Positions 1,296 to 61,771 of a stretch of DNA of 64,000 nt are shown piece after piece. The stretch comes from a bacterium. Lineage in GTDB: Bacteria > Patescibacteriota > Patescibacteriia > SG8-24. The notes below the pieces were generated by a model. The model had not been told where the DNA came from, made no database searches, and saw nothing but the letters and a program-made list of their open reading frames with translations. The stretch covers positions 16,934 through 80,933 of the forward strand of contig JBDRRB010000018.1 in the NCBI GenBank assembly GCA_043825985.1, written 5' to 3'. A program made the position numbers and the translations under genes. Each line of letters opens with the position of its first letter. Position 1 is the first letter of the stretch.

Positions 1296-1317
1296 GTCGG
1301 TTCGACGATCACAAAAA

Positions 1318-1350
1318 ACAAATCCCTGACCGAATGTCGGGGATTTTTGT
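1318..1350. terminator. Bidirectional intrinsic terminator between convergent genes
   Basis: Hairpin aaatccctgaccgaatgtcggggattt followed by TTTTTG on plus; the complement gives a hairpin followed by TTTGTTTTTT on minus. Confidence 0.55.
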
Positions 1351-1369
1351 CCTATTAATCTAGATCCTT

Positions 1370-1786
1370 TTACAACTTCTCAACTATCTCGTAAATGTAC
1401 TGACCAAACTTGTCCTGTCCCATCGCCCGCCACTCCTCAGGAGTGTGCCACTCACCCCGCCGTTCTGGTTTATCCGTGATGAAACGGTCAACTTTGCCTA
1501 CCTTAACCAAATAGTCAGCGAAAATCATGTGAATCTTTTCCCCATCAGTACCTTGGACGTCCAAGCCATCCGTCAAACCGATTAACTCCAACTTCTCCAC
1601 ATCCAAATTGGTTTTCTTCTTGACGTTCTCACGTATGATTGAATCGATCGTCTGGCCCCACTTTATTTCTCCGTTAATACAGGTAAAACGATCATTCTGA
1701 GAAGGTGTGCTCCGCAAGTAAAGTCGCCCGGCCGGATCAAAAATAAATGCACCCGCCAAAAACTTTGGTTTTTTCTCTTCACTCAT
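1370..1786 (-). CDS. NUDIX-fold-like protein with degenerate NUDIX box (RENVKKK in place of REUxEE)
   Basis: G-x5-Q-x6-RE-NVKKK resembles G-x5-E-x7-REUxEExGU but the catalytic Glu are Lys. Start taken at ATG (MSEEKK), since the longer ORF starts with GTG. Local GC (~45%) is well below the flanks. Confidence 0.4.
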   Translation of the reverse strand: MSEEKKPKFLAGAFIFDPAGRLYLRSTPSQNDRFTCINGEIKWGQTIDSIIRENVKKKTNLDVEKLELIGLTDGLDVQGTDGEKIHMIFADYLVKVGKVDRFITDKPERRGEWHTPEEWRAMGQDKFGQYIYEIVEKL

Positions 1787-1904
1787 AGGTTTAAACGGCA
1801 CTGATTAACAGACCGATCATGGCAGGTATATTTTTCGAAGAAAACAAGAAGGCGGACCACATCGGTCCGCCTTCTGCGTCTCGAACGCGAGTTCGAACGC
1901 CCGA

Positions 1905-2330
1905 CTACTTCAGAGTGATCTTGGCGCCGGCCTCCTCGAGCTTCTTCTTCCACTCCTGGGCCTGTTCCTTGGCCACGCCCTCCTGGAGGACCTTCGGGGC
2001 GCTGTCGACGACACCCTTGGCGTCGGCGAGGCCCATCTGGGTCAGCTCGCGGATCGCCTTGATGACGCCGATCTTGTTCGAACCGGCCTCGGTGATCTCG
2101 ACGTCGAACGAAGACTTCTCGTCCTCGGCGGCGGCGTCGCCACCGACGGCCGGAGCGGCACCGGCGAAGGCCATCATCGGAGCGGCGGCCGAAACGCCGA
2201 ACTTCTCCTCGAGGACCTTGACCAGCTCGGCCAGATCCAGCACGGACATCTTCTCGATGCTGCCGACGAGGTCCTTGAACTTGGCCGGGGCCTCAACCTC
2301 CTTCTTCTCGTCCTGATTCTCTTCCGACAT
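1905..2330 (-). CDS. rplL: 50S ribosomal protein L7/L12
   Basis: The C-terminal domain ([20 protein letters not shown]...EAGAKITLK) and Ala-rich hinge are characteristic of L7/L12. Confidence 0.95.
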
Positions 2331-8965: not shown

Positions 8966-9643
8966 TTAGTCCTGCTTAGGCTCGACGGTCACGGTCTCCA
9001 TGACGTCGCCGACGACGATCGACCGGACGACATCCAGGCCCGAAGTCACCTGACCGAAGATGGTGTAGTTCTTGGGCAGCGCCGGCTGGTCGCCCAGGCA
9101 GATGAAGAACTGGCTGCCGTTGGTGTCCGGTCCGGCATTGGCCATGGCCACCGTGCCGTCCAGGTAGTCACGGGTCACCGGCTCGTCCTCGAAGCGGTAG
9201 CCGGGGCCGCCGGTGCCGTTGCCGTTCGGGTCACCGCCCTGGATGACGAAGTTCGGCACGACCCGATGGAAGGCCAGCCCGTCGTAGTAGCCGCTCTCGA
9301 CCAGGGCGACGAAGTTGGAGACGGCCTTAGGCGCGTCCTCGGCGTAGAGGCCGAAGACGATCTCGCCCTTGGCGGTCTTGATCCGGACCTGGCGGTTCTC
9401 GATCCGTTCGGCCGGCAGTACGCCGACCGGCTGGTCCGGAACCGGAGGCCGCTCGGAGACGGAAGCGTCCGGCTCGTTTGTCTGCTGTGTCATATCCTGC
9501 TCGTTAGCCGTCGACGACGGAATTTCGCTCTCGACCCCTGCCGGCTGTCCGGCACCGCAGCCCCCGCCCAAAAACATGATTCCGAGCAGGGCCAGTACGG
9601 GCAACTTTCGCATATTCATATACGTTAGTGGAAATCTGATCAA
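8966..9643 (-). CDS. Peptidyl-prolyl cis-trans isomerase, cyclophilin type (secreted/lipoprotein)
   Basis: FHRVVPNFVIQGGDP...GTVAMANAGPDTNGSQFFI cyclophilin signature; signal peptide ending GGGCGAG. Confidence 0.85.
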   Translation of the reverse strand: MIRFPLTYMNMRKLPVLALLGIMFLGGGCGAGQPAGVESEIPSSTANEQDMTQQTNEPDASVSERPPVPDQPVGVLPAERIENRQVRIKTAKGEIVFGLYAEDAPKAVSNFVALVESGYYDGLAFHRVVPNFVIQGGDPNGNGTGGPGYRFEDEPVTRDYLDGTVAMANAGPDTNGSQFFICLGDQPALPKNYTIFGQVTSGLDVVRSIVVGDVMETVTVEPKQD

Positions 9644-12372: not shown

Positions 12373-13380
12373 GTGATAAAATGCAGGACGACAGGCGCCA
12401 CCATAAACGACAACACCATGAGTCCCAGTCCAGAAAAACGAGACAGGCCGGACAATGCCGGCGTCGACGGCAGCAAGGCCGCCCCGGAAAGGAAAGACGG
12501 GACCGAGAACGACCAACGCAAACAGCTGAAGGCTGAAATGGCGACCCGCAGACGGAAATTCACGGCGCTCAAAAAACTGCTCGACGAATACGAAAAGGCG
12601 GCGGCCCTGGCCGATCCTGACGACCAGGACCAGCAGGTGCTGAAAAAGGTGGCCAAAAAAGGCGGACCGCACGCCGTCCGGCTCAAGATGCTGCAGGAGG
12701 AACGGTCCGGGCTGCTCCTGCAGCAAAGGATCATGACCGACCGGGTAAACGAGACACGCCGCGAGCTGAACGCCGGCACCGAGCCGCTGGAAACGACGGC
12801 CGAACGGCTCAAGTCCGAGCTGACGGTGGCCGGCGACGAGAAAAAGATCGCCGTGACCAAAAGGATGCTGAAGAAGGTCGAGGACGCGATCGCCCTGGAG
12901 CTGACACTGGTGACGCTCCAGTCCAGCCTAAACGAGAACCGAGCCGAAACCGATCAGGCCGAGAGAAACGCGCTGACAGCGGCCACGGCCGAGACCGCAC
13001 CGGACGACGACGAGCGACCGACGGTCGAGATGGCCGCCGCGGACGACGACGAAGACGACGACGAAAGGCCGACGGCCGAGATGGCCGCCGCGGACGACGA
13101 CGAAAGGCCGACGGTCGAGATGGCCGTCGCGGACGACGACGGACGGTCGACGGTCGAATACCGGGCGAAACCGAAAATGCAGCCGGATAGCGGGCGAAAC
13201 ACGGACGGAGAAACCGAAGAGCCGGCCAAAAAACCGACCCGATGGCAGCGTCTGAAGGACTGGTGGAACCGACCCAAAGGCCTGAATCCGCCGGAAGCGA
13301 AGCACGAGAAGAGAAACGACGACTTCGCCGAGATGCTCAAGGAGGTCTGGGCCGGAATCAAGTCGATGTTCAAGTTCTAG
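12373..13380 (+). CDS. Acidic coiled-coil protein with internal tandem repeats (hypothetical)
   Basis: Lys/Glu-rich helical N-terminus, then 3-4 in-frame repeats ERPTVEMAAADDDE. Confidence 0.5.
   Translation: MIKCRTTGATINDNTMSPSPEKRDRPDNAGVDGSKAAPERKDGTENDQRKQLKAEMATRRRKFTALKKLLDEYEKAAALADPDDQDQQVLKKVAKKGGPHAVRLKMLQEERSGLLLQQRIMTDRVNETRRELNAGTEPLETTAERLKSELTVAGDEKKIAVTKRMLKKVEDAIALELTLVTLQSSLNENRAETDQAERNALTAATAETAPDDDERPTVEMAAADDDEDDDERPTAEMAAADDDERPTVEMAVADDDGRSTVEYRAKPKMQPDSGRNTDGETEEPAKKPTRWQRLKDWWNRPKGLNPPEAKHEKRNDDFAEMLKEVWAGIKSMFKF
12990..13160 (+). repeat. In-frame tandem repeat (~45-54 nt unit) inside the acidic protein gene
   Basis: Unit ccgacggtcgagatggccgccgcggacgacgacgaa... recurs three to four times with small variations. 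Confidence 0.6.
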
Positions 13381-14989: not shown

Positions 14990-15395
14990 GGTGGACAGGT
15001 GCAGTGTGCCGACCTAGGACAAATCCACGCAGGTTCTGGGCGGGACCCGCCTCCGCCCTTCGACTTCACTACGGGCGGGGCAAGTGTTATGTACTCGGTT
15101 TCACACGCCAGCGGACTTCAGGTTGAGATGATATGTGCCGGTCTGGGGCGAGTCACGCGAAGAAACCATCGGCAGGTTCTGGGCGGGACCCGCCTCCGCC
15201 CTTCGACTTCACTCAGGGATACGGGCGGACAAGTGTCATGTGCCGACACCCTGCATCTCAACATCAGTGGGCTTCGGACGGGATGCGATGTGCCCGGCTG
15301 GACCGAACGACGAAGCGAAACGTACTGAAAACGTACGTTGAGCTAGGAGCGAGGGAAGCCGGACGCAGCGCGCCCGATCCGGAGACCACTTATCT
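14990..15395. repeat. Nested intergenic repeat array: 42-nt exact direct repeat (15029-15070, 15172-15213) plus modules of the dispersed structured element (copy A 15271-15392)
   Basis: Exact duplicate gcaggttctgggcgggacccgcctccgcccttcgacttcact. Recurring (a)tgtgccg motifs. Copy A core atgcgatgtgcc...aacgtac-tgaaaac-gtacgtt...gcagcgcgcccgatcc with a pairing closing helix cttcgga/tccggag. Confidence 0.7.
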
Positions 15396-16646
15396 TTACT
15401 CGTACTTCAAGGCGGAGATGGGGTCCAATTCCGCCGCCTTCCTCGCCGGATACGCGCCAAACACCATGCCGATGACCATGGCCACGAGCAGGGCCGCCAG
15501 GAAGGACGGCAGGGACACGGCGTACTGGACGTCGAAGCCGGTATACCTGGCGTAGGCGATGACCGCAACCGTCAGGACCGTGCCGGACAGCCCGCCCAGG
15601 GCACCGCCGGCCGTGGTCAGGATGACCGCCTCGGCCAGGAACTGCTGCCAGATGACCGCATTCCGGGCGCCGAGTGCCTTGCGCAGTCCGACCTCGCGGA
15701 CGCGCTCGGTGACCGAAACCAGCATGATGTTCATGATGCCGATGCCGCCGACCAGGAGCGAGATCGCGGCCAGCAGGCCGAGCAGGATGGTGATGGCGTT
15801 CGTCACCGTGCCGATCGTCTCCATCACCTCGGTATATGTATGCACCATGAAGTCGTCCTTGTCCGGGTCAGTGATGTCATGCCGCCGCCGCAGCACGGCC
15901 GAGGCCTCCTCGGAGACCGGATCGATGTACCGCTTGTCGGAGACGATCAGGTCTATCTCCTGCACGTACTCGTCGCCGGACAGCCGCTTCTGCATCAGCT
16001 TGAGCGGCATCAGGACGATGGTGTCGAAGTCCATCGGACCGAACACGCCGCGCGGCTCGAGCACACCGACGACCTGGAGGTTCAGCCCCTTGAGGCGGAC
16101 CTTCTGGCCGATCGGGTCAGACTCGCCGAACAGGTGCTCGGCCACCTTGCTGCCGAGCACGATCACCGGCGTCATCGACTTCTCCTCGCGCTCGCTGAAG
16201 ATCCGGCCGGCGCCGATCTCGGCCTGCAGGTCGAACGACATGTAGTTGGCGGTCGTGCCGAAGACCAGTGACCGGTACTCGCTGTCGCGGAATGACACGA
16301 AGGCCTGGCTGGTGTCGAAGGCCACCGCCTCGAGCACGTGCGGCAGGGACCGGAGCGCCTCGGCGTCGTCGTAGGTGATCGAGACGACCTCGGCGGCGGA
16401 GAACTGCGAGGTGATCGCGCCCTGGTCCGACAGTCCGGGGACGGTGGCGTTGATGGTCACGAAGTTCTTTCCGAACTGCTCGACCTGGGCCAGGATGTAG
16501 CTCTTCAGGCCGAAGCCGAGGGAGACGATCAGGGTGACCGAAAAGACGCCGATGGTCACGCCCAGGAGCGACAGCACGGTGCGCAGGCGGTTGCGGCGAA
16601 GGTTCCTGAGCGCCAGTCCGACGGTATTGCGATAGGCGTGCGGCAT
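15396..16646 (-). CDS. ABC transporter permease, FtsX/MacB-type
   Basis: N-terminal TM, large periplasmic domain, C-terminal 3-TM FtsX domain. Confidence 0.85.
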   Translation of the reverse strand: MPHAYRNTVGLALRNLRRNRLRTVLSLLGVTIGVFSVTLIVSLGFGLKSYILAQVEQFGKNFVTINATVPGLSDQGAITSQFSAAEVVSITYDDAEALRSLPHVLEAVAFDTSQAFVSFRDSEYRSLVFGTTANYMSFDLQAEIGAGRIFSEREEKSMTPVIVLGSKVAEHLFGESDPIGQKVRLKGLNLQVVGVLEPRGVFGPMDFDTIVLMPLKLMQKRLSGDEYVQEIDLIVSDKRYIDPVSEEASAVLRRRHDITDPDKDDFMVHTYTEVMETIGTVTNAITILLGLLAAISLLVGGIGIMNIMLVSVTERVREVGLRKALGARNAVIWQQFLAEAVILTTAGGALGGLSGTVLTVAVIAYARYTGFDVQYAVSLPSFLAALLVAMVIGMVFGAYPARKAAELDPISALKYE

Positions 16647-16649
16647 AGG

Positions 16650-17885
16650 CTATTCCTCCCTCAGGGCGACGATCGGGTCGAGACGCGACGCGGTCATGGC
16701 CGGCGAGACTCCCGAGACCATGCCGATTCCGGCCGCGACCACGAGCGCGGTCAGGACATACGACACCGGCATGAAGAAGTTCCAGGAGTAGCCGTAGTGC
16801 TGGACGGCCACCGATATCAGGACCGAGAAGCTGACCCCGATCACGGCGCCGACGATGCCGCCGGCCAGGGACATCGCCCCGCTCTCGATCAGGAACTGCA
16901 TCAGGATGCGCCGGCTGTTGGCGCCGAGGGCCTTCCGGAGGCCGATCTCGCGCCGCCGCTCGCGCACCGAGACGAACATGATGTTCATGATGTTGATCCC
17001 GCCCACCAGGAGCGCGATCGCCGTCACCACCAGCAGGAACCCCTGCATGGCGCCGGTCACGTTGCCCAGCATCTCGGCCGCCTGGTCGGTGCTGCCGATG
17101 GTGAAGTCGTCCTTGGAAGGGTCCTTGATGTGATGCTGCCGCCGCAGGGCCCGGGCGGCGTCGTCCTTGACCGTCTCCAGATTCGCACCGTCGACGGACT
17201 TGAGTCGGATGGCCGAGACATAGTCGATGCCCGCGACCAGGCGCTGGGCGGTGGTGACCGGTATGATCACCCGGTCGTCGAGGTTCTGGAAGAAGGCCGT
17301 CCCCTGCTCGGTCGTCACGCCGACGACCGTGAACCGGATGCCCTTGATGTCGACCGTCTGCCCGACCGGGCTCCGGTCCGGCGACAGCCCCTCGGCCACG
17401 GTCGTCCCGACCACGGCCACCCGGGCGAAGCGGGCCACGTCCTCGGCGGACAGGAAACGCCCTTCGGCCATCTCCAGCCCCTCCAGGTCCCAGGCCTGCT
17501 CGTTCACCCCGACGACCGAGGTGACGACGGTCTCGCGGCCCATCGACACGGTCCGGGTCGAGTTTACGTACGGCACCACGGCCTGCACGCCGCTGACCTT
17601 CCGCAGCGCGTCGGCGTCGTCGAGCTTGAGCGTGCCGAGCACGATGCCCATGGCGATGGGCGGCGGCTCGTTCTCCTGGCTGCCGCCGGGAGTGACGCCG
17701 ATCAGGTCGCCGCCGAATGAGGTCACCTGGCTCAGGATCAGGTCCTGCGCGCTCAGGCCGACCGAAGCGACAGTCAAAACGGACATCACCCCGATGATGA
17801 TGCCCAAGGTGGACAGCACGGCCCGGCTCCTCATCGCCCACAGCGACTTGAGGACGGAGATTGCGTCGCGCCACCAGATATTCAT
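16650..17885 (-). CDS. ABC transporter permease, FtsX/MacB-type (second paralog)
   Basis: Same architecture as the downstream permease, with 3-nt spacing between the two genes. Confidence 0.85.
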   Translation of the reverse strand: MNIWWRDAISVLKSLWAMRSRAVLSTLGIIIGVMSVLTVASVGLSAQDLILSQVTSFGGDLIGVTPGGSQENEPPPIAMGIVLGTLKLDDADALRKVSGVQAVVPYVNSTRTVSMGRETVVTSVVGVNEQAWDLEGLEMAEGRFLSAEDVARFARVAVVGTTVAEGLSPDRSPVGQTVDIKGIRFTVVGVTTEQGTAFFQNLDDRVIIPVTTAQRLVAGIDYVSAIRLKSVDGANLETVKDDAARALRRQHHIKDPSKDDFTIGSTDQAAEMLGNVTGAMQGFLLVVTAIALLVGGINIMNIMFVSVRERRREIGLRKALGANSRRILMQFLIESGAMSLAGGIVGAVIGVSFSVLISVAVQHYGYSWNFFMPVSYVLTALVVAAGIGMVSGVSPAMTASRLDPIVALREE

Positions 17886-17887
17886 AG

Positions 17888-18564
<677 letters not shown>

Positions 18565-18572
18565 CGAAGCGG

Positions 18573-34791: not shown

Positions 34792-36387
34792 CTAGATGAG
34801 CGGAGAGCCGGTCATACCGTCGGGCTTGTCGACGCCGAGAAGCCTGAGCACCGTCGGCGCGGTGTCGGCCAGCATTCCGGCCGGAGACATCAGCGACAGG
34901 TCGCCGCCGACGCCCTCACTGCCGCTGGGGGCGGACTGACCGCGCCAGCGCTCGCCGACGACGATGAACGGAACCGGATTGGTGCTGTGCTCCTTGTCCA
35001 GCTCGCCGGTCTGCAGATTCAGGACCTCCTCGCCGTTGCCGTGGTCGGCGGTGATGACCACCGCGCCGCCCCTGGGCAGCACGGCGTTGACGATCCGCCC
35101 GACGCAGCGGTCGACCGTCTCGCAGCCGACCTTCGTGGCCTCGAAGTTTCCGGAGTGCCCGACCATGTCGGCATTGGCGAAGTTGGCGACGATGAAGTCA
35201 AACTCGCCCCGTTCGACCTCCTGCAGGATACGGTCGGCGATCTTGGACGCCGACATCTCCGGTGCCTGGTCGTAGGACGAGACGCGCGGCGACGGGATGA
35301 TGACCCGAGACTCACCGGGGAACTCGTCCTCACGCATCCCGTTCAGGAAAAACGTGACGTGGGCGTACTTCTCGGTCTCGGCGATGTGCAGCTGCTTCAG
35401 TCCGGCGGCCGAGACGACCTGGGCCAGGCAGGTCTCGATGATCTCGGGCGGAAACGCCACCCTGACCGGCAGGCCCCTCTCGTACTCGGCCATCGTGCCA
35501 AAGAACAGCTCCGGCAGCAGCGTCCGCTCGAACTTGGAGAAGTCCGGTCTGACGAAGGCGGAAGTGATCTGCCTGGCCCGGTCCGGACGGAAGTTGGCGA
35601 AGATCACCGCGTCGCCGTTCTTGATCGGCCCGACCGGCCTGCCGTCCGGGCCGACCACGGCCACCGGCACGAACTCCTCGTCGTAGACCTCGGCCGCATA
35701 CGACTTCTCCAGCGCCGCCGCCGGATCCTGGCAGGTGCTGTCGGTCTCGCCGGTCACCGCCCGGTAGGCCTTCTCGACGCGGTCCCAACGGTTGTCGCGG
35801 TCCATGGCATAGAAGCGTCCGCTGACCGAACCGATCCGGCCGAAGCCCAGCTCCTTCAGCTTGGCCTGCAGCTCGCGCACGAAATCGATGCCCGCGTTGA
35901 ACTTGGTGTCGCGCCCGTCGGTGAAGACGTGCACCACCACGTCCTTGATCTCCTGCTTCTGGGCGAACTCCAGCAGCGCATGGACGTGCGCATCCGAGCC
36001 GTGCACGTTGCCCGGACTCAGGATGCCCATGATGTGCAGGGTGGAACCGTGCTGCCGGACGTGCTCGGCCGCCGCCAGGAACACCTCGTTCTGAAAGAAG
36101 CCGCCGTTCTGTATCGACAGGTTGATGCGCGGAAAGGTCTGATAGAAAATCCGGCCGGCACCGATGGTCAGGTGGCCGACCTCCGAGTTTCCCATCTCGC
36201 CCCACGACAGGCCGACCGCCTCGCCTGAGGCATGGACCGTCATGGTCGGAAAGGTGGTGATGATCTCGTCCAGATAGGGCGTGTCGGCGGCCTCGACCGG
36301 ATTGCCCGGCCCGGACTGGGCGACGCCCCAGCCGTCCAGGATCAGCAGAACCACCGGTTTGAACTTTTCTTCGGCCATATTCGTCAA
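34792..36387 (-). CDS. gpmI: 2,3-bisphosphoglycerate-independent phosphoglycerate mutase
   Basis: VLLILDGWG, ...SEVGHL..., ...ITADHGN... motifs. 531 aa. Confidence 0.9.
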   Translation of the reverse strand: MTNMAEEKFKPVVLLILDGWGVAQSGPGNPVEAADTPYLDEIITTFPTMTVHASGEAVGLSWGEMGNSEVGHLTIGAGRIFYQTFPRINLSIQNGGFFQNEVFLAAAEHVRQHGSTLHIMGILSPGNVHGSDAHVHALLEFAQKQEIKDVVVHVFTDGRDTKFNAGIDFVRELQAKLKELGFGRIGSVSGRFYAMDRDNRWDRVEKAYRAVTGETDSTCQDPAAALEKSYAAEVYDEEFVPVAVVGPDGRPVGPIKNGDAVIFANFRPDRARQITSAFVRPDFSKFERTLLPELFFGTMAEYERGLPVRVAFPPEIIETCLAQVVSAAGLKQLHIAETEKYAHVTFFLNGMREDEFPGESRVIIPSPRVSSYDQAPEMSASKIADRILQEVERGEFDFIVANFANADMVGHSGNFEATKVGCETVDRCVGRIVNAVLPRGGAVVITADHGNGEEVLNLQTGELDKEHSTNPVPFIVVGERWRGQSAPSGSEGVGGDLSLMSPAGMLADTAPTVLRLLGVDKPDGMTGSPLI

Positions 36388-38009
36388 GACAAAAGCGAGT
36401 GTCCGGTCATCTCGTCCGGCTTAGGAAGGCCCAGCACCTCCAATATGGTAGGGGCCACGTCGGCCAGCGTGCCGTCCCTGAGGCGACGGCGGCGAAGGCG
36501 CTTGCCGATTATGACGAAAGGAACGGGATTGGTCGAATGTTCGGTGATCACCTCACCGGTCCGACGGTCGGCCATCCGCTCGGCGTTGCCGTGGTCGCCG
36601 ACTATGGCCAGCGTGCCGTCGCGGGCCAGGACCTCCTTGGCCAGGGTGTCCAGGCATGCGTCCACGCACCGAACCGCCTCGACGGTCGCCGGAATGTTTC
36701 CCGAATGTGCCACCATGTCGGCGTTGGCGAAATTCAGGGCGATGAAGTCGTCCCGGCCGGCGCGCAGCCGACGGACCACCTCGTCCGTGATGACCCGAGC
36801 CCGCATCTCCGGCCGCAGGTAGTGGTGCGGCACGAACTGGGACGGGATGCGCATCCGCTCCTCGCCGAACCGTATCTGGGAAAAGCCGCCGTTCAGGAAG
36901 TACGTCACGTGGGCGAACTTCTCGCTCTCGGCGATGTACAGCTGACGCATCCCGTTCCGGCCCAGGACCTCGGTCAGGCCCATCTTAACGTCGCGGCTGG
37001 GAAAGGCGGTCATGATGCTGTCCAGGTCGGGACCGAAGTCGGTCATGGCCACGAACCGAAGATCCCTGACCACCTTATGGCGAACGAAGGCACCGTCGTT
37101 GCGCCGGGTGAATTCCTTCTGGACGAAGGTCTTAGCCAGCTGCCGGGCCCGGTCCGATCGAAGGTTGAAGAACACGATCGAGTCGCCGTCGTCGACGGGG
37201 CCGATCGGCCGATGCCTGGCGTCGACGATGACTGTCGGCAGCAGAAACTCGTCGGTCTCGCCGCGGTCGTAGCCGCGCCGGACGGCCGTCGCCGGATCCG
37301 GGGCGGCCACTCCCCGACCGCAGACGATGGCGTTGTAGGCATGCTGGGTCCTGACCCACCACTTGTTGCGGTCCATGGCGTAGAACCGCCCCATGATCGA
37401 GGCGACCCGCTGACCGTCGGACAGGTGCCTGTTCAGGGCCTGCAGCAGCTTGAGGGCGGAATGGGGCGACGAGTCACGTCCGTCGGTGAACAGGTGCAGC
37501 CGAACGTCGCGAATCCTTTCCCGGCGCATCATCTCGAGCAGGGCGTACAAGTGGGCCGGCGAGGAGTGGGCGCTGTTGCCGTTGGACAGCAGTCCCATGA
37601 CGTGAAGGCACGATCCGTTTCGTCGGACGTGCTTGACCGCCTCCCTGAGGGCCGAATTCTTGAAGAACGTCCCGTCCTTGATGGCCTCGGTCACGTAGAG
37701 GATGTCCTGATGGACGATCCGCCCGGCGCCGATGTTGGAGTGTCCGGCCTCGGAGTTGCCCTCCTGATTCGGGAGAAGGCCGACATGACGACCGTGGGCC
37801 ATCAGGCGCGAGCTGGGAAATTTCTTCTGCAAAGCGGACAGCGACGGCGTGCCGGCCAGGCAGATGGCGTTGCCGCGGCCCGGCGGGGCGATTCCCCAAC
37901 CGTCGAGGATAGCCAAAACAAACGGACCGGAACCCTGTCCCGCCCCATCCTGCCCGCCCCTACGGACGGCGACTCTTTTGGCCCTGGATGACCGCACTGG
38001 CATGGCCAT
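36384..38009 (-). CDS. 2,3-bisphosphoglycerate-independent phosphoglycerate mutase paralog (second copy, diverged)
   Basis: VLAILDGWG, SEAGHS, IVGDHGN motifs. Its stop overlaps the start of the downstream gpmI by 4 nt. Start trimmed to MAMPVRSS. Confidence 0.82.
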   Translation of the reverse strand: MAMPVRSSRAKRVAVRRGGQDGAGQGSGPFVLAILDGWGIAPPGRGNAICLAGTPSLSALQKKFPSSRLMAHGRHVGLLPNQEGNSEAGHSNIGAGRIVHQDILYVTEAIKDGTFFKNSALREAVKHVRRNGSCLHVMGLLSNGNSAHSSPAHLYALLEMMRRERIRDVRLHLFTDGRDSSPHSALKLLQALNRHLSDGQRVASIMGRFYAMDRNKWWVRTQHAYNAIVCGRGVAAPDPATAVRRGYDRGETDEFLLPTVIVDARHRPIGPVDDGDSIVFFNLRSDRARQLAKTFVQKEFTRRNDGAFVRHKVVRDLRFVAMTDFGPDLDSIMTAFPSRDVKMGLTEVLGRNGMRQLYIAESEKFAHVTYFLNGGFSQIRFGEERMRIPSQFVPHHYLRPEMRARVITDEVVRRLRAGRDDFIALNFANADMVAHSGNIPATVEAVRCVDACLDTLAKEVLARDGTLAIVGDHGNAERMADRRTGEVITEHSTNPVPFVIIGKRLRRRRLRDGTLADVAPTILEVLGLPKPDEMTGHSLLS

Positions 38010-38133
38010 ATTATATAGTAAGCCCGATTTAAGTTGAATCTGGAGAATTGATATCCGACGACCATGGCAAACAACGGCCACGGAAAACAAAAGACGCCGC
38101 ATTCGGCAGCGTCATCCGGAACCAGTCGCGACT

Positions 38134-42637: not shown

Positions 42638-42689
42638 AGCCGAATTACGTTAGGGCATTTCTTCTCCTTATTTGCCGCTTGATTATACA

Positions 42690-42716
42690 ACAAAAAAGAG
42701 CGCGGAACACGCTCTA
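42690..42716 (-). terminator. Minus-strand intrinsic terminator at the edge of the low-GC islet
   Basis: On minus: agagcgtgttccgcgctct hairpin followed by TTTTTTG. Confidence 0.5.
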
Positions 42717-42814
42717 CGAAAAGGAACTCGTCTCTATCGTTCAACAACGGCAGCGCTGGCTGAGGTGCAGCCGACGATAGGCCTGATCAGCCAGCGGACA
42801 GAACAACCCAGGAT

Positions 42815-43054
42815 TCAGTTCGGAAGTGGCATCCAAACCGAGCCATTCGGTTCAAACATCCACTGATTCATGATGTTCACCAACTCACCACGGTCTGAGG
42901 GTACGACCTTGAAAAAGTTGTGAACGAGCTGAACATAACGACGGGACTCGGGATCGGTGTGGGAAATGTCATCGAAAACCATTTCCTCGCCACAGCTCAG
43001 CACATCACCGGCCAACAGGCTCGAACTGACCAGCCCGGACATGAAGCCAGACAC
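42815..43054 (-). pseudogene. Short ORF or gene remnant of unknown function
   Basis: 79-aa ORF in a 650-bp gene-poor stretch with intermediate GC. No start context and no recognisable complete domain. A minus-strand terminator lies downstream. Confidence 0.2.
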
Positions 43055-43288
43055 CGTTTCGACCAGGGTATCGCCCTTTGTGACCGGAATGCCAGGGAAA
43101 GAAAGTTAAAGTAGCCTCCTGAAAAAATCTAATAACAAAAAAATTTATTTCATATAACGTTCCAGAATATGCGATGTTTGGCAGTGGTAAAATTTGGAGC
43201 GGAGCGACATACCACTGCCAAATATGAGAGAGCGAACGGAGCGATAGCGGAGTGAGTGAACCAGTTATTCATTGTTAAGTGATGTGAT

Positions 43289-43765
43289 TTAAATTTTCTC
43301 CATCATTTTCTCAACTGTTTCTTCAACTGTCAGATCGGTATTGTCAATTTCATGACCTGCTTGAATTTTTGTAGTAACCATGTGCACGAATCGAGCAGAA
43401 TCTTCACCGTAAACTTTTTTCCTTTTGGAATCCCTCTCGATACATTTATCTACGTGGCTGGTTAGAGTGAAAATTTCTACATCATTATCAAATTTTTCCA
43501 CTAAATCATCAATTTGTTCTTGATAGTAGAAACACCCATCAATAATAAAGGAATTTTCACTCTTCTTTGCTAAATCGAGGATGATTTGATTTGCTTTTAA
43601 GTAGCTCTCGAGAGGGATTCCATCTGAATTAGCTGGAACCAGTTTGTTATCATCAACAATTTGATCTAGTGATAAATATTCTAGGTGAAGATTCTGCGAC
43701 AACAGTTGAGAAACAGTTGTTTTGCCAACACCTAATGGACCTCTGATTATTATTAGTTTTTTCAT
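43289..43765 (-). CDS. Small P-loop kinase (AAA_33/NMP-kinase-like, predicted nucleotide or small-molecule kinase)
   Basis: Walker A GPLGVGKTT at residues 9-17 and a 158-aa single-domain kinase fold. Gene and flanks are ~35-40% GC against ~65% for the window. Confidence 0.6.
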   Translation of the reverse strand: MKKLIIIRGPLGVGKTTVSQLLSQNLHLEYLSLDQIVDDNKLVPANSDGIPLESYLKANQIILDLAKKSENSFIIDGCFYYQEQIDDLVEKFDNDVEIFTLTSHVDKCIERDSKRKKVYGEDSARFVHMVTTKIQAGHEIDNTDLTVEETVEKMMEKI

Positions 43766-43971
43766 AGACTGAAAAATTAAATCATTTCACATAACGTTGG
43801 GCTTATGCGAAGTTCAAAATTTGAGGCAACCCACAAATTTTGAATTTGGGAAACCGAAGTGCAACGAGGTTTCCGCATAAGCCCTGTTATGTGCCCCGAG
43901 CGTAACGCAGTGAAGCGAGAGTGCAACGTGGTCGACCGACTGAAAGGAGGGAGAAGTTAGGGTGGCGGACA

Positions 43972-44334
43972 TCATTCAATGAATCCATCTCTCTTCAGCT
44001 TCTCAAGTGAATTATTGATGGATTCTTCTAATTCTTTATCTGCTTTGTAATAAGCACATATTTGGAGGGCTGAACGTAAGACATCTTGAATCTCTTTGGC
44101 GAGCTTCTTTTTGTCTGGTTCTCCATGCTTATCTTTTTTAACTCCGGTATTCTCAAAATGATTTACTTCACTAGCAAGCTCGCCACATTCTTCAACGAGT
44201 CGTGTGATTATTTGAAAAGGATCTTTGCCATTCGGAAACTTCTTATCTAATCCCGCGTTAATTTTTATAACTTTGTCTAACATATTTGTTGTGAAGCCCT
44301 CCAAATATTTAAAGATGATGTAATTGTCCGCCAC
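43972..44334 (-). CDS. MazG-like nucleotide pyrophosphohydrolase (small all-alpha NTP-PPase)
   Basis: EECGELASEV (EExGE motif) and a second acidic helix (EIQDVLRSAL). 120 aa. Low GC, with an AT-rich upstream region. Confidence 0.65.
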   Translation of the reverse strand: MADNYIIFKYLEGFTTNMLDKVIKINAGLDKKFPNGKDPFQIITRLVEECGELASEVNHFENTGVKKDKHGEPDKKKLAKEIQDVLRSALQICAYYKADKELEESINNSLEKLKRDGFIE

Positions 44335-44399
44335 CCTAATTGCACATAACTAGTTTTTATCCGAACTTTGTATTCCAAGTGTGATAAATTCTTGTTTGT

Positions 44400-44871
44400 T
44401 ATACAAACTTTTTTAAAAAAGCCGAACTCTCGAGGTTGAGAAAACAATAGTAAGGTTTAAACCGGAATCCGGTTCAATCGTTTCTGGATCCCGGATCTCC
44501 TTCCCTCCGGTCAGTCGTCCGGGATGACAGGCTAGGGGGCTGGTCAGTCGTCCGGGATGACAATAACTGTTGTCATGGCAAGCAGAAAAAGCAGCAGTGA
44601 TCAGAAAAACAAGCAGCCCTTGGACGGGAGGCGATGTACCGATCGAAAAACAAAGCAGGCCACAGATTGGACCCACCTCCACCAAGACTTCGGTGGGCAG
44701 GTGAAGTGTGTCCTAACCGGTCCCGGAAAATGAAACAGCCCTTGGACGGGATGCGATGTGCCTGCTTGGAGGAAATCGTACGACGAGGCGTACTAGTGCA
44801 ATACGTCGAGTAAACGATTTCCGAAAGCTGGTGCAGCGCGCCCGATCCAAGGGCTGCCATTCCTTGACGGT
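44400..44871. repeat. Repeat-dense spacer: 21-nt direct repeat (ggtcagtcgtccgggatgaca x2), two 5' modules of the structured element (44617, 44739), and copy D (44737-44858) ending 14 nt from the tsf stop
   Basis: cagcccttggacggga[gt]gcgatgt[ag]cc occurs twice. Copy D closing helix cagcccttgga/tccaagggctg is a perfect 11 bp. Conserved gtgcagcgcgcccgatcc 3' core. Confidence 0.65.
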
Positions 44872-45459
44872 CTAGAGAGCGAAACGAATGAAGCGTCTAA
44901 TCTGCATGTTCTCGCCGATCTTGGCGATATTGTTCTTGAGATGGTCCTGGACGGTCAGGTCCTCGTCCTTGATGAACCGCTGATTAAGCAGACAGACATC
45001 CTGACGGTACTTATCCAACTTACCCTCGACGATCTTGGCGATGACGTCGGCCGGCTTGCCGGAACCGGCGAACTCCTCGGCTGCCAGCTCGCGTTCCTTC
45101 TCCAGGACGTCGGCCGGTATGTCGTCCGCGGTCAGGTACAGCGGATTGGCCGCCGCAACGTGCATAGCCAGGTCATGAACGAATTCCTTGAACTGCTCGT
45201 TGAGAGCGACAAAATCCGTCTCACACAGCACCTCGACCATGGCGCCGACCTTGCCCGTACCATGAATGTAGGCATGAACCAGCCCTTCCTTGACCTCGCG
45301 GTCGCCTTTCTTGTCGGCCTTGGCGATGCCCTTCTTGCGGAGGATGTCCGCCGCCTTGTCGATGTCTCCGCCGGCCTCGTCGAGGGCGGTCTTGCAGTCG
45401 ACCATGCCGGCGTTGGTGCGGGCACGGAGTTCGGCGATGGTCCTGGTGTCAACGGCCAT
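44872..45459 (-). CDS. tsf: Elongation factor Ts (short form)
   Basis: N-terminal UBA-like IAELRARTNAGMVDCKTALDEAGGDIDKA and the dimerisation core. 195 aa. Immediately downstream of rpsB. Confidence 0.9.
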   Translation of the reverse strand: MAVDTRTIAELRARTNAGMVDCKTALDEAGGDIDKAADILRKKGIAKADKKGDREVKEGLVHAYIHGTGKVGAMVEVLCETDFVALNEQFKEFVHDLAMHVAAANPLYLTADDIPADVLEKERELAAEEFAGSGKPADVIAKIVEGKLDKYRQDVCLLNQRFIKDEDLTVQDHLKNNIAKIGENMQIRRFIRFAL

Positions 45460-54109: not shown

Positions 54110-54250
54110 CTTAAAACAAAGCGGACTTCAGGTTGGATGAAGTGTGCTTGGCTGGAGCGATCCGTGCAGCGAAACGTACTAAGAACGTACGTTGAGCAAA
54201 CGGATCGCGAAGCCAAGTGCAATTCGCCAAGCTGGAGTCCGCCCAATCTA
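54110..54250. repeat. Structured repeat element, copy B (diverged)
   Basis: gcggact...agtccgc 7-bp closing helix, atgaagtgtgc core, gcgaaacgtac-taagaa-cgtacgttgagc hairpin, gtgcaattcgcc 3' core. Overlaps the stop codon of 54248..55249. Confidence 0.6.
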
Positions 54251-55249
54251 ATCCTCCGGCGCAAGGTAGATGGCCGGATCGAACAGGTTCAACTCCGGCC
54301 TAACTTCGACTCGGGTCACGCTCGGCAGGTCATTGAACCAGCTGGCCTCGACAGTCCTGGTCTCGCCGGCCTTCAGCCCGCTCGCCACGACCCGGTTGGC
54401 CGCCACTACCCGTTCGCCGCTCAGCAGGGCCACCATGAACGGCACCGAAACGTAGCCGTAGGCGGTGTTGTTGGTGACGCTGAAACGGGCCCGGCTGACC
54501 GGCAGCGACGACTTCGGGTCCGGCGGCATGAACTCCGGATCGGCGATGACGAAATCCAGCCGGCTGGTCGCCCAAGTCTGGTAGTCGGGACGGACGACAT
54601 GCCCGTCAACCCGATGCCAGGACAGGTCGACTATCTCGAAGCTGGGGCTCGGCCGTCGGTCGGCGTCGACCGCCAGCTGATACAGGTAGCGGGAGTCGGC
54701 CGGCAGGAGATATCCGTGCTGCACGCGGTCCGGCAGCCCGGAATCGACGAATCGGTAGTCGAACTCGACCCACCAGCGACGGTTCGGGTTGGCCACCCGG
54801 GCCAGCAGGTCGTACTTGCCCTCGCCGGACGTCAGCACGATCGGCGTCTGGACGGACAGGCGCTCCGGCATGGAGGCCTCGCGGAATCCGGCGTAGTCGG
54901 TCAGATTCTGGGTCAGGAGGGCGGTTCCGGCCCGCTCCCGCACGCCGGACCCGAAGAACCAGTCGGCGAAACCCCAGACGCCGTAGGCCAGAAGAGAAAA
55001 TCCGACCACTGCCAGCAGCACGGTCAGCCCGGTCTTGAGCTGCGCCTTGTGATGAAGCCACCACAGGCCCCACCTGAGCTGATCCTCCGAAAGACGGTCA
55101 TCGTTCTCGATTGGTGTCTCCATATAATATAGGTAGCCGGTTAACGACTCCATGATAGCAGACTCGGGCGGCCGGGCCGAGAGACTTGACCGAGACCGAC
55201 GGCTGTGTTGTACAGGCCGGCTGTGACCTCTCCTCGAGAGGCACTGCAA
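54248..55249 (-). CDS. Hypothetical membrane protein
   Basis: N-terminal TM region (GLTVLLAVVGFSLLAYGVWGF) and a ~250-aa extracytoplasmic domain. No recognisable motif. Confidence 0.5.
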   Translation of the reverse strand: MQCLSRRGHSRPVQHSRRSRSSLSARPPESAIMESLTGYLYYMETPIENDDRLSEDQLRWGLWWLHHKAQLKTGLTVLLAVVGFSLLAYGVWGFADWFFGSGVRERAGTALLTQNLTDYAGFREASMPERLSVQTPIVLTSGEGKYDLLARVANPNRRWWVEFDYRFVDSGLPDRVQHGYLLPADSRYLYQLAVDADRRPSPSFEIVDLSWHRVDGHVVRPDYQTWATSRLDFVIADPEFMPPDPKSSLPVSRARFSVTNNTAYGYVSVPFMVALLSGERVVAANRVVASGLKAGETRTVEASWFNDLPSVTRVEVRPELNLFDPAIYLAPED

Positions 55250-61534: not shown

Positions 61535-61639
61535 TCGCACGCATACGGTGGGTCCCCGGACTCGGGACCGCTTCTCTCCGTAGACAAACGGAAACCCCGC
61601 TTCTTAAAGCGGAGCCGTCCAATTCATTCCAAACATCGA

Positions 61640-61762
61640 CGGGCACTGGGCGGGATGCAGTGTGCCCCGCTGGACCGAGCGACGACGCGAGACGTACCCA
61701 AAATGTACGGCGAGCTAGGAGCACGGGAAGCGGGGTGCAATGCGCCCGACCCAGTGACCGCA
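61640..61762. repeat. Structured repeat element, copy C, within the rplK 5' leader
   Basis: Closing helix cactggg/cccagtg (perfect 7 bp), junction cggg/(A)/cccg, core atgcagtgtgcc, hairpin gacgtac-ccaaaat-gtacgg, gagctaggagc, gcaatgcgcccga. Ends about 10 nt before the rplK ATG. Confidence 0.65.
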
Positions 61763-61771
61763 TAGAAAAAT

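What the first reader, a model, noticed from the sequence alone, without database searches (positions are those of the whole stretch)
43100..44400. Low-GC islet encoding a small P-loop kinase and a MazG-like NTP pyrophosphohydrolase, bounded by diverged copies of the structured repeat
About 1.3 kb at roughly 35-40% GC is embedded between gap (66% GC) and tsf. It carries two convergently terminated minus-strand genes. One is a 158-aa P-loop kinase (GPLGVGKTT). The other is a 120-aa MazG-type all-alpha pyrophosphohydrolase (EECGELASEV). Each gene is followed, in gene orientation, by an AT-rich variant of the repeat element. These variants carry long imperfect palindromes (43150-43240, ggcagtgg...ccactgcc, and 43800-43960, gggcttatgcg...cgcataagccc) and share the ATGCGA(A/T)GT and GTGCAACG motifs. 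The GC-rich repeat array at 44400-44871 follows. The compositional contrast argues for horizontal acquisition. Kinase plus MazG pairs that manipulate nucleotide pools are typical of phage auxiliary or anti-phage modules and of some toxin-antitoxin-like pairs. This pairing with these flanking elements is not a system I recognise.
Basis: partly seen in the sequence, partly recalled or inferred. Interest (0 to 1): 0.6.

Follow-up and report, generated by a model that had tools for sequence, protein, structure and literature searches.

The report
Two integron gene cassettes, no integrase
The low-GC islet is a short array of two integron-type gene cassettes (a MazG pyrophosphatase and a small P-loop kinase, each followed by its own attC recombination site) inserted between tsf and gap of a high-GC Patescibacteria (CPR) genome; it is a known kind of mobile element, not a new kinase-MazG system.

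Summary
The low-GC islet is real. It sits at 34-40% GC in a window of about 65% GC, with GC3 of 0.28 and 0.34 against 0.75-0.93 for host genes. It is a genuine insertion: two relatives keep rpsB-tsf-gap-pgk-eno synteny with about 145 bp between tsf and gap, where this genome has 2,234 bp. The two "AT-rich palindromes" are not diverged copies of the host's GC-rich structured repeat. They are attC-type recombination sites. A covariance model built only from attC sites of two foreign cassette arrays (L010, L008) hits the 64-kb window exactly twice, at 43146-43283 (E 1e-17) and 43783-43895 (E 5e-14). A model of the GC-rich repeat finds nothing in the islet. The kinase ORF recurs at 89-96% identity in unrelated contigs, with homology starting at GTTAAGT and ending at ACTTAAC, and with different neighbours each time. 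Kinase and MazG do not co-occur in any other locus sampled, so they are two independent cassettes and not a functional pair. No integrase was detected in the window, so the element is a two-cassette CALIN (cluster of attC sites lacking an integrase). This is a new member of a known kind. Its mild interest is the host phylum (CPR) and some unusual attC features.

The parts
42638..44871 (-). Whole segment inserted between tsf (stop at 44872) and gap (start at 42637). Relatives have only about 140-150 bp here.
   Evidence: L031 (tsf 86% identical) and L034 (81%) keep rpsB-tsf-gap-metallophosphatase-pgk-eno. BLAST shows no match to window 42639-44867.
44344..44350 (-). R'-type core GTTATGT at the upstream boundary of the MazG cassette. 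It is preceded by an AT-rich stretch (44351-44420) that may be a decayed attC or attI remnant.
   Evidence: first of three direct repeats GTTATRTGMAAT. The weak fold and lack of an R1 hit leave the upstream stretch unassigned. A similar AACNAGTTAYNNGAAAT junction flanks a MazG homologue in L037.
43972..44283 (-). MazG-family NTP pyrophosphohydrolase, 103 aa, YpjD-like. It carries EECGE and KEIQD metal-binding motifs.
   Evidence: PF03819. (P0121, 100% identical, 103 aa). (2gta YpjD, E 2e-6). (conserved E32, E35, E64).
43957..43971 (.). Right arm of a perfect 15-bp inverted repeat (TTAGGGTGGCGGACA / TGTCCGCCACCCTAA) that brackets the MazG ORF. The left arm is at 44325-44339.
   Evidence: I12, 15/15. 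I read it as the cassette's own extended R'/R'' complementarity (TTAGGG / CCCTAAC). That reading is an inference.
43783..43895 (-). attC site of the MazG cassette. R'' is ACATAAC (43892-43886), followed by an 11-bp L stem and a two-hairpin variable part. R' is GTTATGT (43795-43789). About 45 nt upstream (to about 43940) is also conserved in the family.
   Evidence: R1: 58.2 bits, E 4.7e-14; this site was not in the training set. (DNA fold -29.8 kcal/mol, z -6.7). (only strict core-plus-stem hit in the window). (5' extension shared with L008 and L010).
43289..43765 (-). 158-aa P-loop kinase (NMP-kinase / gluconate-kinase / chloramphenicol-phosphotransferase fold). Its substrate is unknown.
   Evidence: (AF2 pLDDT 95; best structural matches 2bdt, 1ko5, 1qhs). 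(dN/dS 0.04-0.12 among copies).
43146..43283 (-). attC site of the kinase cassette. R'' is ACTTAAC (43280-43274), with a central hairpin at 43174-43225. R' is GTTATAT (43158-43152). The L stem is partly broken, and the 3' 20 nt differ from the L010 copy.
   Evidence: R1: 70.4 bits, E 1.3e-17; four non-canonical L pairs flagged. (same attC behind the kinase in L010, closing properly there).
43771..43795 (.). Left arm of the 25-nt (84%) inverted repeat that brackets the kinase ORF. The right arm is at 43274-43298. It corresponds to the cassette 5' end (G)TTATGTGAAATGATTTAA pairing with TTAAATCACATCACTTAAC.
   Evidence: I4; the same two ends bound the kinase unit in L010, L008, L007 and L001.
43100..43151 (-). 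AT-rich start of a possible truncated third cassette (TTATATGAAATAAATTTTTTTG...). It keeps the family's GAAAT motif after R'.
   Evidence: GAAAT after R' is invariant in the attC family. Inference only.
42815..43054 (-). ORF79, an orphan ORF (GC3 0.65) inside the inserted segment. It is followed by a terminator-like hairpin at 42697-42715. Origin unknown.
   Evidence: no family. (only itself among 1.84 billion representatives). (terminator).
44726..44866 (+). Copy of the host's GC-rich 141-nt structured repeat, adjacent to the islet but not part of the cassette array. Degenerate pieces extend down to about 44500.
   Evidence: R2: 139 bits here; no R2 hit in the islet; no R1 hit here.

Best explanation
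The islet is a short cluster of integron-type gene cassettes without an integrase (a CALIN), inserted between tsf and gap of a high-GC Patescibacteria chromosome.

Layout in gene orientation:
- a boundary core, GTTATGT;
- the MazG cassette (ORF plus a 113-nt attC);
- the kinase cassette (ORF plus a 138-nt attC);
- the AT-rich beginning of a further, truncated unit.

Each cassette is an independent mobile unit. It is a promoterless ORF followed by an imperfect palindrome: R'' (RYYYAAC), an L'' stem, a variable part, an L' stem, and R' (GTTRRRY).

Established integron biology gives the mechanism. The folded bottom strand of attC is recombined by an IntI tyrosine recombinase at G|TT. The partner site can be attI, another attC, or a loose genomic attG site. 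I infer that the cassettes came from a low-GC cassette pool circulating among CPR and other uncultivated organisms. They arrived either by IntI acting in trans at a genomic site or as a fragment of a larger array. They are now probably fixed, because no integrase was detected in the window and the kinase attC has a damaged L stem.

The two enzymes most likely act separately.
- The MazG is YpjD-like and probably hydrolyses non-canonical NTPs (house-cleaning).
- The kinase has the fold of small-molecule and NMP kinases. It is under strong purifying selection, and its substrate is unresolved.

Expression, if any, would depend on read-through from rpsB-tsf. This is inferred and not shown.
For: 1. 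Insertion. Relatives with 86% and 81% identical Ts keep the same gene order with about 145 bp between tsf and gap, against 2,234 bp here. An independent Logan assembly (L030) is 100% identical across the host/islet junction.

2. Foreign composition. GC3 is 0.28 (kinase) and 0.34 (MazG), against 0.75-0.93 for host genes.

3. attC identity.
- Locus L010 is a textbook array. Nine same-strand sites match the model at strong E-values and follow small co-oriented ORFs by 10-20 nt. Their cores include GTTAGGC, GTTAGCC and GTTAAGT.
- Ten sites from L010 and L008 align to one family. It has a 12-bp L stem, and 8 of those pairs show compensatory changes. No shuffle out of 500 reached the observed covariation score.
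- Model R1, built from these ten sites only, hits the window twice and nowhere else below E=2: 43146-43283 (70.4 bits) and 43783-43895 (58.2 bits).

4. Cassette behaviour. The kinase unit recurs in L010, L008, L007 and L001. Homology starts at G|TTAAGTGAAATGATTT and ends at ...ATCACATCACTTAAC. The neighbours differ: acetyltransferase and GmrSD, NUDIX, a methyltransferase, HNH plus a PRA-PH-like protein.

5. R1 finds no site in the 19 loci L011-L029, which include the kinase homologues of 55-82% identity resident in CPR genomes, nor in the two host relatives.

6. No tyrosine-recombinase motif sits in a plausible reading frame of the window.

7. Precedent.
- Small CALINs and SALINs are common, and insertion at genomic attG sites has been shown experimentally (PMC9024848; bioRxiv 10.1101/2022.09.11.507474).
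- The nearest plasmid relative of the kinase (30% identity) is itself a cassette in a class 1 integron.
Against: - No integron integrase, attI or Pc was found here or in any related locus. The link to IntI therefore rests on site architecture alone.
- The reference attC model of IntegronFinder could not be run. My family-specific model R1 does not recognise class 1 attC sites.
- The spacer between the R and L boxes is unusual: 1 nt on one side and 3-4 nt on the other. No bulged extrahelical bases are evident in the L stem.
- The conserved site extends beyond a canonical attC. It has ATC before R'', GAAAT after R', and about 45 nt upstream.
- The same kinase ORF is followed by different attC bodies in L008, in L001, and in the window/L010 pair. 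Strict G|TT recombination does not predict this.
- The integrase search was only a regular-expression scan, and only over 64 kb of an 83-kb contig.
Confidence: 0.8

Rival explanations
1. Kinase and MazG form a dedicated two-gene module (nucleotide-pool manipulation, anti-phage defence or toxin-antitoxin-like) that moves as one unit.
For: - They are adjacent and co-oriented.
- In L001 the kinase cassette is followed by a different all-alpha NTP-pyrophosphatase-like gene. In L008 a NUDIX cassette lies upstream. Nucleotide hydrolases therefore recur near the kinase.
- PHROGs gives weak matches to phage dNMP/thymidylate kinases and NTP pyrophosphohydrolases.
Against: - Each gene has its own attC.
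- No other kinase locus sampled carries this MazG, and no MazG locus carries the kinase.
- PADLOC gives only N-terminal P-loop matches of 22 bits or less for the kinase and nothing for MazG.
- No phage record encodes a relative of the MazG.
- The kinase fold matches gluconate, shikimate, chloramphenicol and adenylate kinases about equally, with no evidence for a nucleotide substrate.
- Small hydrolases are common cassette cargo in general.
Confidence: 0.07
2. The palindromes are AT-rich, diverged members of the host's own GC-rich structured repeat, and they mediated or mark the insertion.
For: - Short motifs are shared: ATGCGAWGT and GTGCAAYG.
- A full GC-rich copy lies directly next to the islet at 44726-44866.
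Against: - Model R2 of the GC-rich repeat scores 137-150 bits on its four copies. It finds nothing in 43100-44400 at E<=10.
- R1 hits the palindromes and none of the GC-rich copies.
- The shared motifs play different structural roles. They form a stem in one element and a hairpin loop in the other.
- The palindromes have close homologues in unrelated contigs.
Confidence: 0.03
3. A non-integron element: a cassette-like system of CPR and other uncultivated organisms. It would use attC-like palindromes but a different recombinase, or the palindromes could be mobile REP/MITE-type elements that insert between genes.
For: - No IntI is seen in any of the four attC-bearing contigs.
- The conserved ends are longer than a canonical R box, and there is an extra conserved stretch of about 45 nt.
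- The same ORF occurs with different palindrome bodies.
- The ORFs are bracketed by 15-25 nt inverted repeats.
Against: - The cores, their orientation, the ORF-then-site order, site lengths of 67-138 nt and the same-strand arrays are exactly those of integron cassettes.
- The contigs are short (6-15 kb), so absence of intI is weak evidence.
- Most archaeal integrons found in metagenome-assembled genomes are CALINs, and CALINs are also very common in bacterial genomes (PMC9668308, PMC9024848).
Confidence: 0.08
4. Assembly or binning artefact: a low-GC fragment from another organism was joined into a high-GC contig.
For: The composition contrast is extreme, and the source is a metagenome-assembled genome.
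Against: - Both junctions lie inside one contig, between syntenic host genes.
- A separately assembled Logan contig reproduces the tsf / GC-rich repeat / MazG junction at 100% identity over 1,788 bp.
Confidence: 0.02

Closest known systems
CALIN (cluster of attC sites lacking an integron integrase; Cury et al. 2016; IntegronFinder 2.0, PMC9024848)
   Same: - Two attC-type sites lie about 640 bp apart on one strand.
- Each follows a small co-oriented ORF.
- No integrase was detected nearby.
- The element is small. In RefSeq, 1,362 of 2,961 CALINs have only two cassettes (bioRxiv 10.1101/2022.09.11.507474).
   Different: - The host is a Patescibacteria/CPR genome. I found no specific report of integron cassettes in this phylum in the searchable library.
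- The attC family has extended conserved ends and an unusual R-L spacer.
- Identification rests on a model I built, not on IntegronFinder's.
Cassette insertion at genomic attG sites / SALINs (bioRxiv 10.1101/2022.09.11.507474)
   Same: Cassettes sit in an ordinary intergenic region between housekeeping genes, far from any integron platform. This is the outcome that work describes for IntI-mediated attC x attG insertion.
   Different: The junctions here are not clean. An AT-rich remnant lies upstream, and a truncated third unit plus an orphan segment of about 460 bp lie downstream. A simple single attG event is therefore not demonstrated.
Archaeal integrons and cross-domain cassette exchange (PMC9668308)
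   Same: - Cassette arrays occur in uncultivated, small-genome lineages, mostly as CALINs.
- The window's MazG has a 71% identical homologue annotated in a Pacearchaeota (DPANN) genome.
   Different: The Pacearchaeota copy is not flanked by this attC family. Cross-domain transfer of this particular cassette is therefore not shown.
gar / Gar-GrdA integron-borne P-loop aminoglycoside resistance protein (PMC7085159; NF038208)
   Same: It is a small P-loop ATP-binding protein carried as an integron cassette. It is the best NCBIfam match of the kinase (E 5e-10). The nearest plasmid relative is a cassette in an intI1 array.
   Different: The score is only 39 bits against a cut-off of 170, with 30% identity over 130 residues. 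The kinase is not an equivalog, and no resistance function can be inferred.
B. subtilis YpjD-type single-domain MazG (PDB 2gta, 5ie9)
   Same: Same length class (about 100-120 aa). It has the EExGE and ExxD motifs, and it is the best solved-structure relative by sequence.
   Different: The similarity is moderate (31.7 bits, matched over residues 15-96), and substrate specificity is unknown.

Membership tests
Integron attC site | Inverse core R'' (RYYYAAC) at the 5' end and core R' (GTTRRRY) at the 3' end, on the coding strand of the cassette | tested here: met
   Kinase attC: ACTTAAC (exact) and GTTATAT (1 mismatch). MazG attC: ACATAAC (1 mismatch) and GTTATGT (1 mismatch).. Family members in L010 have GTTAGGC, GTTAGCC and GTTAAGT.
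Integron attC site | Imperfect palindrome with a conserved L''/L' stem whose pairing, rather than its sequence, is conserved | tested here: met
   Family alignment A1 has 12 L pairs, 8 with compensatory changes, and 92.6% of cells paired against 22-42% when the partner is slid. The window's MazG attC has 11-12 bp intact. The window's kinase attC has 4 broken pairs.
Integron attC site | Length about 57-141 nt, variable central part | tested here: met
   Core to core the sites are 104 nt (43892-43789) and 129 nt (43280-43152). Family range is 67-128 nt.
Integron attC site | Unpaired central spacer and extrahelical bases that set strand choice | tested here: inconclusive
   The R-L spacer is asymmetric: 1 nt on the 5' side and 3-4 nt (RRAC) on the 3' side. 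No bulged bases are seen in the L stem. Whether this is equivalent to the canonical extrahelical bases cannot be judged from sequence.
Integron attC site | Recognised by the reference covariance model (IntegronFinder attc_4) and recombined by IntI at G|TT | not testable with these tools
   The model is not available here, and no experiment is possible. My model R1 is family-specific and does not score class 1 attC sites.
Integron gene cassette | The same ORF+site unit is found in different arrays with breakpoints at the core sites | tested here: met
   The kinase unit occurs in the window, L010, L008, L007 and L001. Homology starts at GTTAAGT/GTTATGT and runs to ACTTAAC. Flanks and neighbours differ. 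Caveat: the attC body after R'' is shared only with L010.
Complete integron | intI tyrosine recombinase gene with adjacent attI and Pc promoter | tested here: not met
   No tyrosine-recombinase box-II motif lies in a plausible frame of the 64-kb window. Genes around the islet are rpsB, tsf and gap. No promoter signal exceeds shuffles. The regex-level search is not exhaustive.
CALIN | At least two attC sites clustered (within 4 kb) without an integrase | tested here: met
   Two R1 hits lie about 640 bp apart on the same strand, and no integrase was detected in the window.
MazG (PF03819) | Match above the Pfam gathering score, with EExxE...ExxD metal-binding motifs | tested here: met
   29.5 bits against a cut-off of 22. 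E31/E32/E35 and E64/D67 are conserved in 33 homologues.
Gar/GrdA (NF038208) or any named NMP / shikimate / gluconate kinase equivalog | Score above the curated NCBIfam cut-off | tested here: not met
   The best match is 39.2 bits against a cut-off of 170. All 25 listed families are far below their cut-offs. Only membership of the P-loop kinase fold is supported.
Known anti-phage defence systems (PADLOC) | Significant full-length match of the components to a defence-system model | tested here: not met
   Kinase: only residues 1-41 match VakA (22.5 bits). MazG: no match.
Host GC-rich 141-nt structured repeat | Match to the covariance model of the four window copies | tested here: not met
   R2 gives no hit in 43100-44400 at E<=10, while its own copies score 137-150 bits.

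The most novel reading that the evidence does not exclude
Patescibacteria (CPR) and neighbouring uncultivated lineages may maintain their own integron-like cassette pool with a distinct attC family. That family has an R box of about 12 bp (ATC-R'' / R'-GAAAT), a conserved 5' extension of about 45 nt, and a 1-versus-4-nt spacer.

In this pool an ordinary CPR gene family (the 158-aa kinase) has been converted into a cassette. attC bodies are exchanged between cassettes.

If so, these loci would give a rare before-and-after view of cassette genesis, because genome-resident and cassette-borne copies of one gene can be compared. They might also point to a non-canonical recombinase.
Probability: 0.25. 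Interest if true: 0.6.

Novelty: new member of a known kind. Interest (0 to 1): 0.35.

Why it matters
The finding turns an apparently novel kinase-MazG "system" into a recognisable element, and it stops a false functional pairing from being propagated.

The residual value is ecological and evolutionary.
- It shows integron-type cassettes lodged in the core ribosomal/glycolytic neighbourhood of a CPR bacterium. CPR is a phylum with reduced genomes where such traffic is barely documented.
- The cargo is still completely unameliorated: 35% GC in a 65% GC genome.
- The kinase family exists both as a resident CPR gene and as a cassette under strong purifying selection. This could inform the open question of how cassettes and their attC sites originate.

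Tried and rejected
- Rfam on the window (gathering threshold) and on the islet (E<=5): nothing meaningful.
- tRNA/tmRNA scan as a possible integration target: none.
- Exact look-ups of the two window proteins: not on record.
- Promoter/terminator scan of the islet: counts no higher than in shuffles.
- IS-like "mobile insertion cassette" reading of the inverted repeats that bracket the ORFs. I rejected it because the two brackets differ in sequence, there are no target duplications, and the arms coincide with R'/R'' cores.
- Metagenome scan for MazG loci: only two short contigs, neither with the kinase.
- Genome scan for kinase loci: 19 loci, mostly Patescibacteria, none with this attC family. 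The window's own genome was not among them.
- BLAST of the L010 array against plasmids: only its GmrSD gene matched.
- R1 on a genuine class 1 integron (L046): no hit. R1 therefore cannot stand in for a general attC detector.
- Weak R1 hits at 1308-1366 and 9566-9636. I judged them chance: one is a terminator-like hairpin and the other overlaps a signal-peptide coding region.
- Attempt to name the organisms behind L001, L007, L008 and L010: no names on record.
- ORF79: no family and no homologue.
Full report
**Observation**

The window averages about 65% GC. Between 43100 and 44450, GC drops to 0.34-0.37.

Two minus-strand ORFs lie there.
- A 158-aa P-loop protein at 43289-43765 matches AAA_18 and AAA_33.
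- A MazG-domain protein matches PF03819 at 29.5 bits, above the cut-off of 22.

The MazG start is the ATG at 44283, giving 103 aa. All 52 homologues and the deposited annotation use that start.

The genes are tandem, not convergent.

GC3 is 0.28 (kinase) and 0.34 (MazG), against 0.75-0.93 for the surrounding host genes.

**Host and insertion**

Ts of the window is 86% identical to that of Candidatus Uhrbacteria RIFOXYC2_FULL_47_19. The remaining named hits are almost all Patescibacteria too, so the host is a high-GC CPR bacterium.

In two relatives (Ts 86% and 81% identical) the order rpsB-tsf-gap-metallophosphatase-pgk-eno is kept. There, tsf and gap are 140-150 bp apart. In the window they are 2,234 bp apart, and nothing in 42639-44867 matches the relatives.

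A separately assembled Logan contig (L030) is 100% identical over 45693-43906. It spans the junction between GC-rich host DNA and the islet. The islet is therefore a true insertion and not a chimera.

**What the flanking palindromes are**

Each ORF is bracketed by an inverted repeat: 15/15 nt around MazG, and 25 nt at 84% around the kinase. A motif GTTATRTGMAAT occurs three times in gene orientation.

Close kinase homologues (89-96% identity) sit in unrelated contexts:
- HNH and a PRA-PH-like gene (L001);
- a methyltransferase and phosphoketolase (L007);
- NUDIX, rpsT and holA (L008);
- acetyltransferase and GmrSD (L010).

In these loci the homology to the window begins at G|TTAAGTGAAATGATTT... 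and ends at ...ATCACATCACTTAAC. Those ends correspond to the integron core GTTRRRY and inverse core RYYYAAC. Outside them the sequences differ.

L010 is a textbook cassette array. It has small co-oriented ORFs, each followed within 10-20 nt by a 67-128-nt palindrome. Each palindrome starts with RYYYAAC and ends with GTTAGGC, GTTAGCC, GTTAAGT and similar cores.

Ten such sites from L010 and L008 align as one family. Their L stem has 12 pairs, 8 of which show compensatory changes. No shuffle out of 500 reached the observed covariation, and slid controls collapse to 22-42% pairing.

A covariance model built from those ten sites only (R1) was run with filters off over both strands of the 64-kb window. 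It gave two significant hits:
- 43146-43283(-), 70.4 bits, E 1.3e-17;
- 43783-43895(-), 58.2 bits, E 4.7e-14.

The next best hit has E=2.6.

These two sites lie directly downstream of the kinase and MazG ORFs, on the coding strand.

The MazG attC folds as single-stranded DNA at -29.8 kcal/mol (z = -6.7).

R1 finds further sites in L001, L008 and L010. It finds none in the 19 loci from the genome scan (L011-L029), which include the kinase homologues resident in CPR genomes. It also finds none in the host relatives or the MazG loci.

A model (R2) of the four GC-rich 141-nt repeats scores 137-150 bits on its own copies. It finds nothing in 43100-44400 even at E<=10. R1 does not hit the GC-rich copies. 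The shared short motifs occupy different structural positions. The palindromes are therefore not diverged copies of that repeat.

**Is kinase+MazG a pair?**

I ran tblastn of both proteins against every fetched locus. Apart from L030, which is the same genome assembled independently, no locus other than the window encodes both.
- About 17 independent loci with a clear kinase homologue, plus a few with distant P-loop relatives and with up to 10 kb of flank, lack this MazG.
- Three independent MazG loci lack the kinase.

Other evidence points the same way.
- PADLOC gives only P-loop-level matches for the kinase and nothing for MazG.
- No phage record encodes a relative of the MazG.
- PHROGs matches are generic.

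Nucleotide hydrolase genes do recur near the kinase: NUDIX in L008 and a PRA-PH-like gene in L001. Such small enzymes are ordinary cassette cargo, and I could not test for enrichment.

**The proteins**

The kinase family is large. It has 331 hits, and most of the named ones are Patescibacteria. In CPR genomes it is an ordinary resident gene without attC.

The cassette-borne copies and the resident L002 copy are 80-93% identical at nucleotide level. Their dN/dS is 0.04-0.12, so the protein is functional.

The AlphaFold model (pLDDT 95) matches several kinase types about equally. These are putative gluconate kinase 2bdt, gluconate kinases, archaeal adenylate kinase, Fap7, shikimate kinase, TmrD and chloramphenicol phosphotransferase (TM 0.80).

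The best NCBIfam match is the integron-borne Gar/GrdA family, but at 39 bits against a cut-off of 170. The nearest plasmid relative (30% identity) is a cassette in an intI1-aacA4-AAA-aac(6') class 1 integron. The substrate is unresolved, and a nucleotide substrate is not indicated.

The MazG is YpjD-like (2gta, E 2e-6). Its EExGE and ExxD motifs are intact.

**Mechanism**

- Shown: there are two ORF+attC units, in tandem, inserted in a housekeeping intergenic region. No integrase was detected in the window by a motif scan.
- Established knowledge (PMC9024848; bioRxiv 10.1101/2022.09.11.507474): IntI recombines folded attC bottom strands at G|TT with attI, attC or loose genomic attG sites. Small CALINs and SALINs may arise this way.
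- Inferred: the cassettes came from a low-GC pool and were inserted by an integrase in trans or as an array fragment. They are now largely fixed, because the L stem of the kinase attC has four broken pairs. Expression would need read-through from rpsB-tsf, since no promoter signal exceeds chance.

**Unexplained details**

- The conserved site is longer than a canonical attC. It has ATC before R'', GAAAT after R', and about 45 nt upstream that is shared behind MazG (window), NUDIX (L008) and an L010 cassette.
- The R-L spacer is 1 nt against 3-4 nt.
- The kinase ORF carries different attC bodies in L008 and L001. In the window, the last 20 nt of its attC differ from the L010 copy. This may reflect homologous exchange between similar attC sites.
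- The 15-bp perfect repeat around MazG ends in TTAGGG/CCCTAAC. It is offset by 11 nt from the GTTATGT boundary.
- The segment 42640-43100 (50-55% GC) holds an orphan ORF with no homologue among 1.84 billion representatives.

**Novelty**

CALINs are well known. I found no specific report of integron cassettes in Patescibacteria in the searchable library, though archaeal and broad bacterial surveys exist (PMC9668308, PMC9024848).

Verdict: a new member of a known kind. Interest is modest at 0.35.

Noticed in passing
window 15258-15398, 44726-44866, 54112-54251, 61630-61770 (all + strand): A 141-nt GC-rich structured repeat with 44 predicted base pairs occurs in four copies. All are in the same orientation: 137-150 bits on the + strand against 31-42 bits on the - strand. 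They lie in intergenic regions, one directly upstream of rplK and one directly after tsf. There is no Rfam match. The strand bias suggests a directional RNA or DNA element.
   Followed up: partly
window 44500-44725: Between the full GC-rich repeat and the islet lie a partial repeat copy (44604-44640, 86% to 44726-44762), a hairpin with a T-run (44652-44679, - strand) and a perfect 21-nt direct repeat GGTCAGTCGTCCGGGATGACA (44509 and 44542). This stretch of about 470 bp is also absent from relatives.
   Followed up: no
window 42815-43054 (-): ORF79 is an orphan ORF inside the inserted segment. Its GC3 (0.65) is intermediate between host and cassettes. It has no family match and no homologue other than itself among 1.84 billion representatives. 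A clean terminator hairpin follows at 42697-42715.
   Followed up: partly
L008 1848-1945 and L001 6483-6564, versus window 43146-43283 and L010 3354-3490: The same kinase ORF (92% nucleotide identity between window and L008) is followed by different attC bodies after the shared R'' ACTTAAC. The window's attC is a hybrid whose L' no longer pairs with its L''. Canonical G|TT recombination does not predict this. It hints at exchange between similar attC sites.
   Followed up: partly
L007 2876-2900: Behind the kinase, almost the whole attC is deleted. It reads ATCACATC|GCATACACGCGGAC, leaving only the L'-end remnant. This is an example of attC decay after a cassette becomes fixed next to a phosphoketolase gene.
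   Followed up: no
L037 230-380 and 700-800: A MazG homologue (62% identity) is flanked on both sides by a repeated promoter-like block (TTGGCT-N17-TATAAT). Both flanks also have a junction ATAAC(T/G)AGTTAYNNGAAAT that resembles the window's upstream boundary AAAACTAGTTATGTGCAAT. This may be a second, AT-rich attC type.
   Followed up: no
window 1001-2000: A second region of lowered GC (0.54) contains a weak R1 match at 1308-1366 (E 2.6). The match looks like a terminator hairpin.
   Followed up: no
window 34795-36420 / 36387-38111, and 15399-16649 / 16653-18572: There are two tandem paralogue pairs, shown by direct repeats spaced 1550 and 1254 bp apart. By synteny with relatives, the first pair is two adjacent phosphoglycerate-mutase-like genes. 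The second pair is two adjacent paralogous ORFs that I did not identify.
   Followed up: no
window 12995-13157: An imperfect tandem repeat of 39-51-nt units rich in GACGACGAC lies inside a + strand ORF. It is likely an acidic or low-complexity protein repeat.
   Followed up: no
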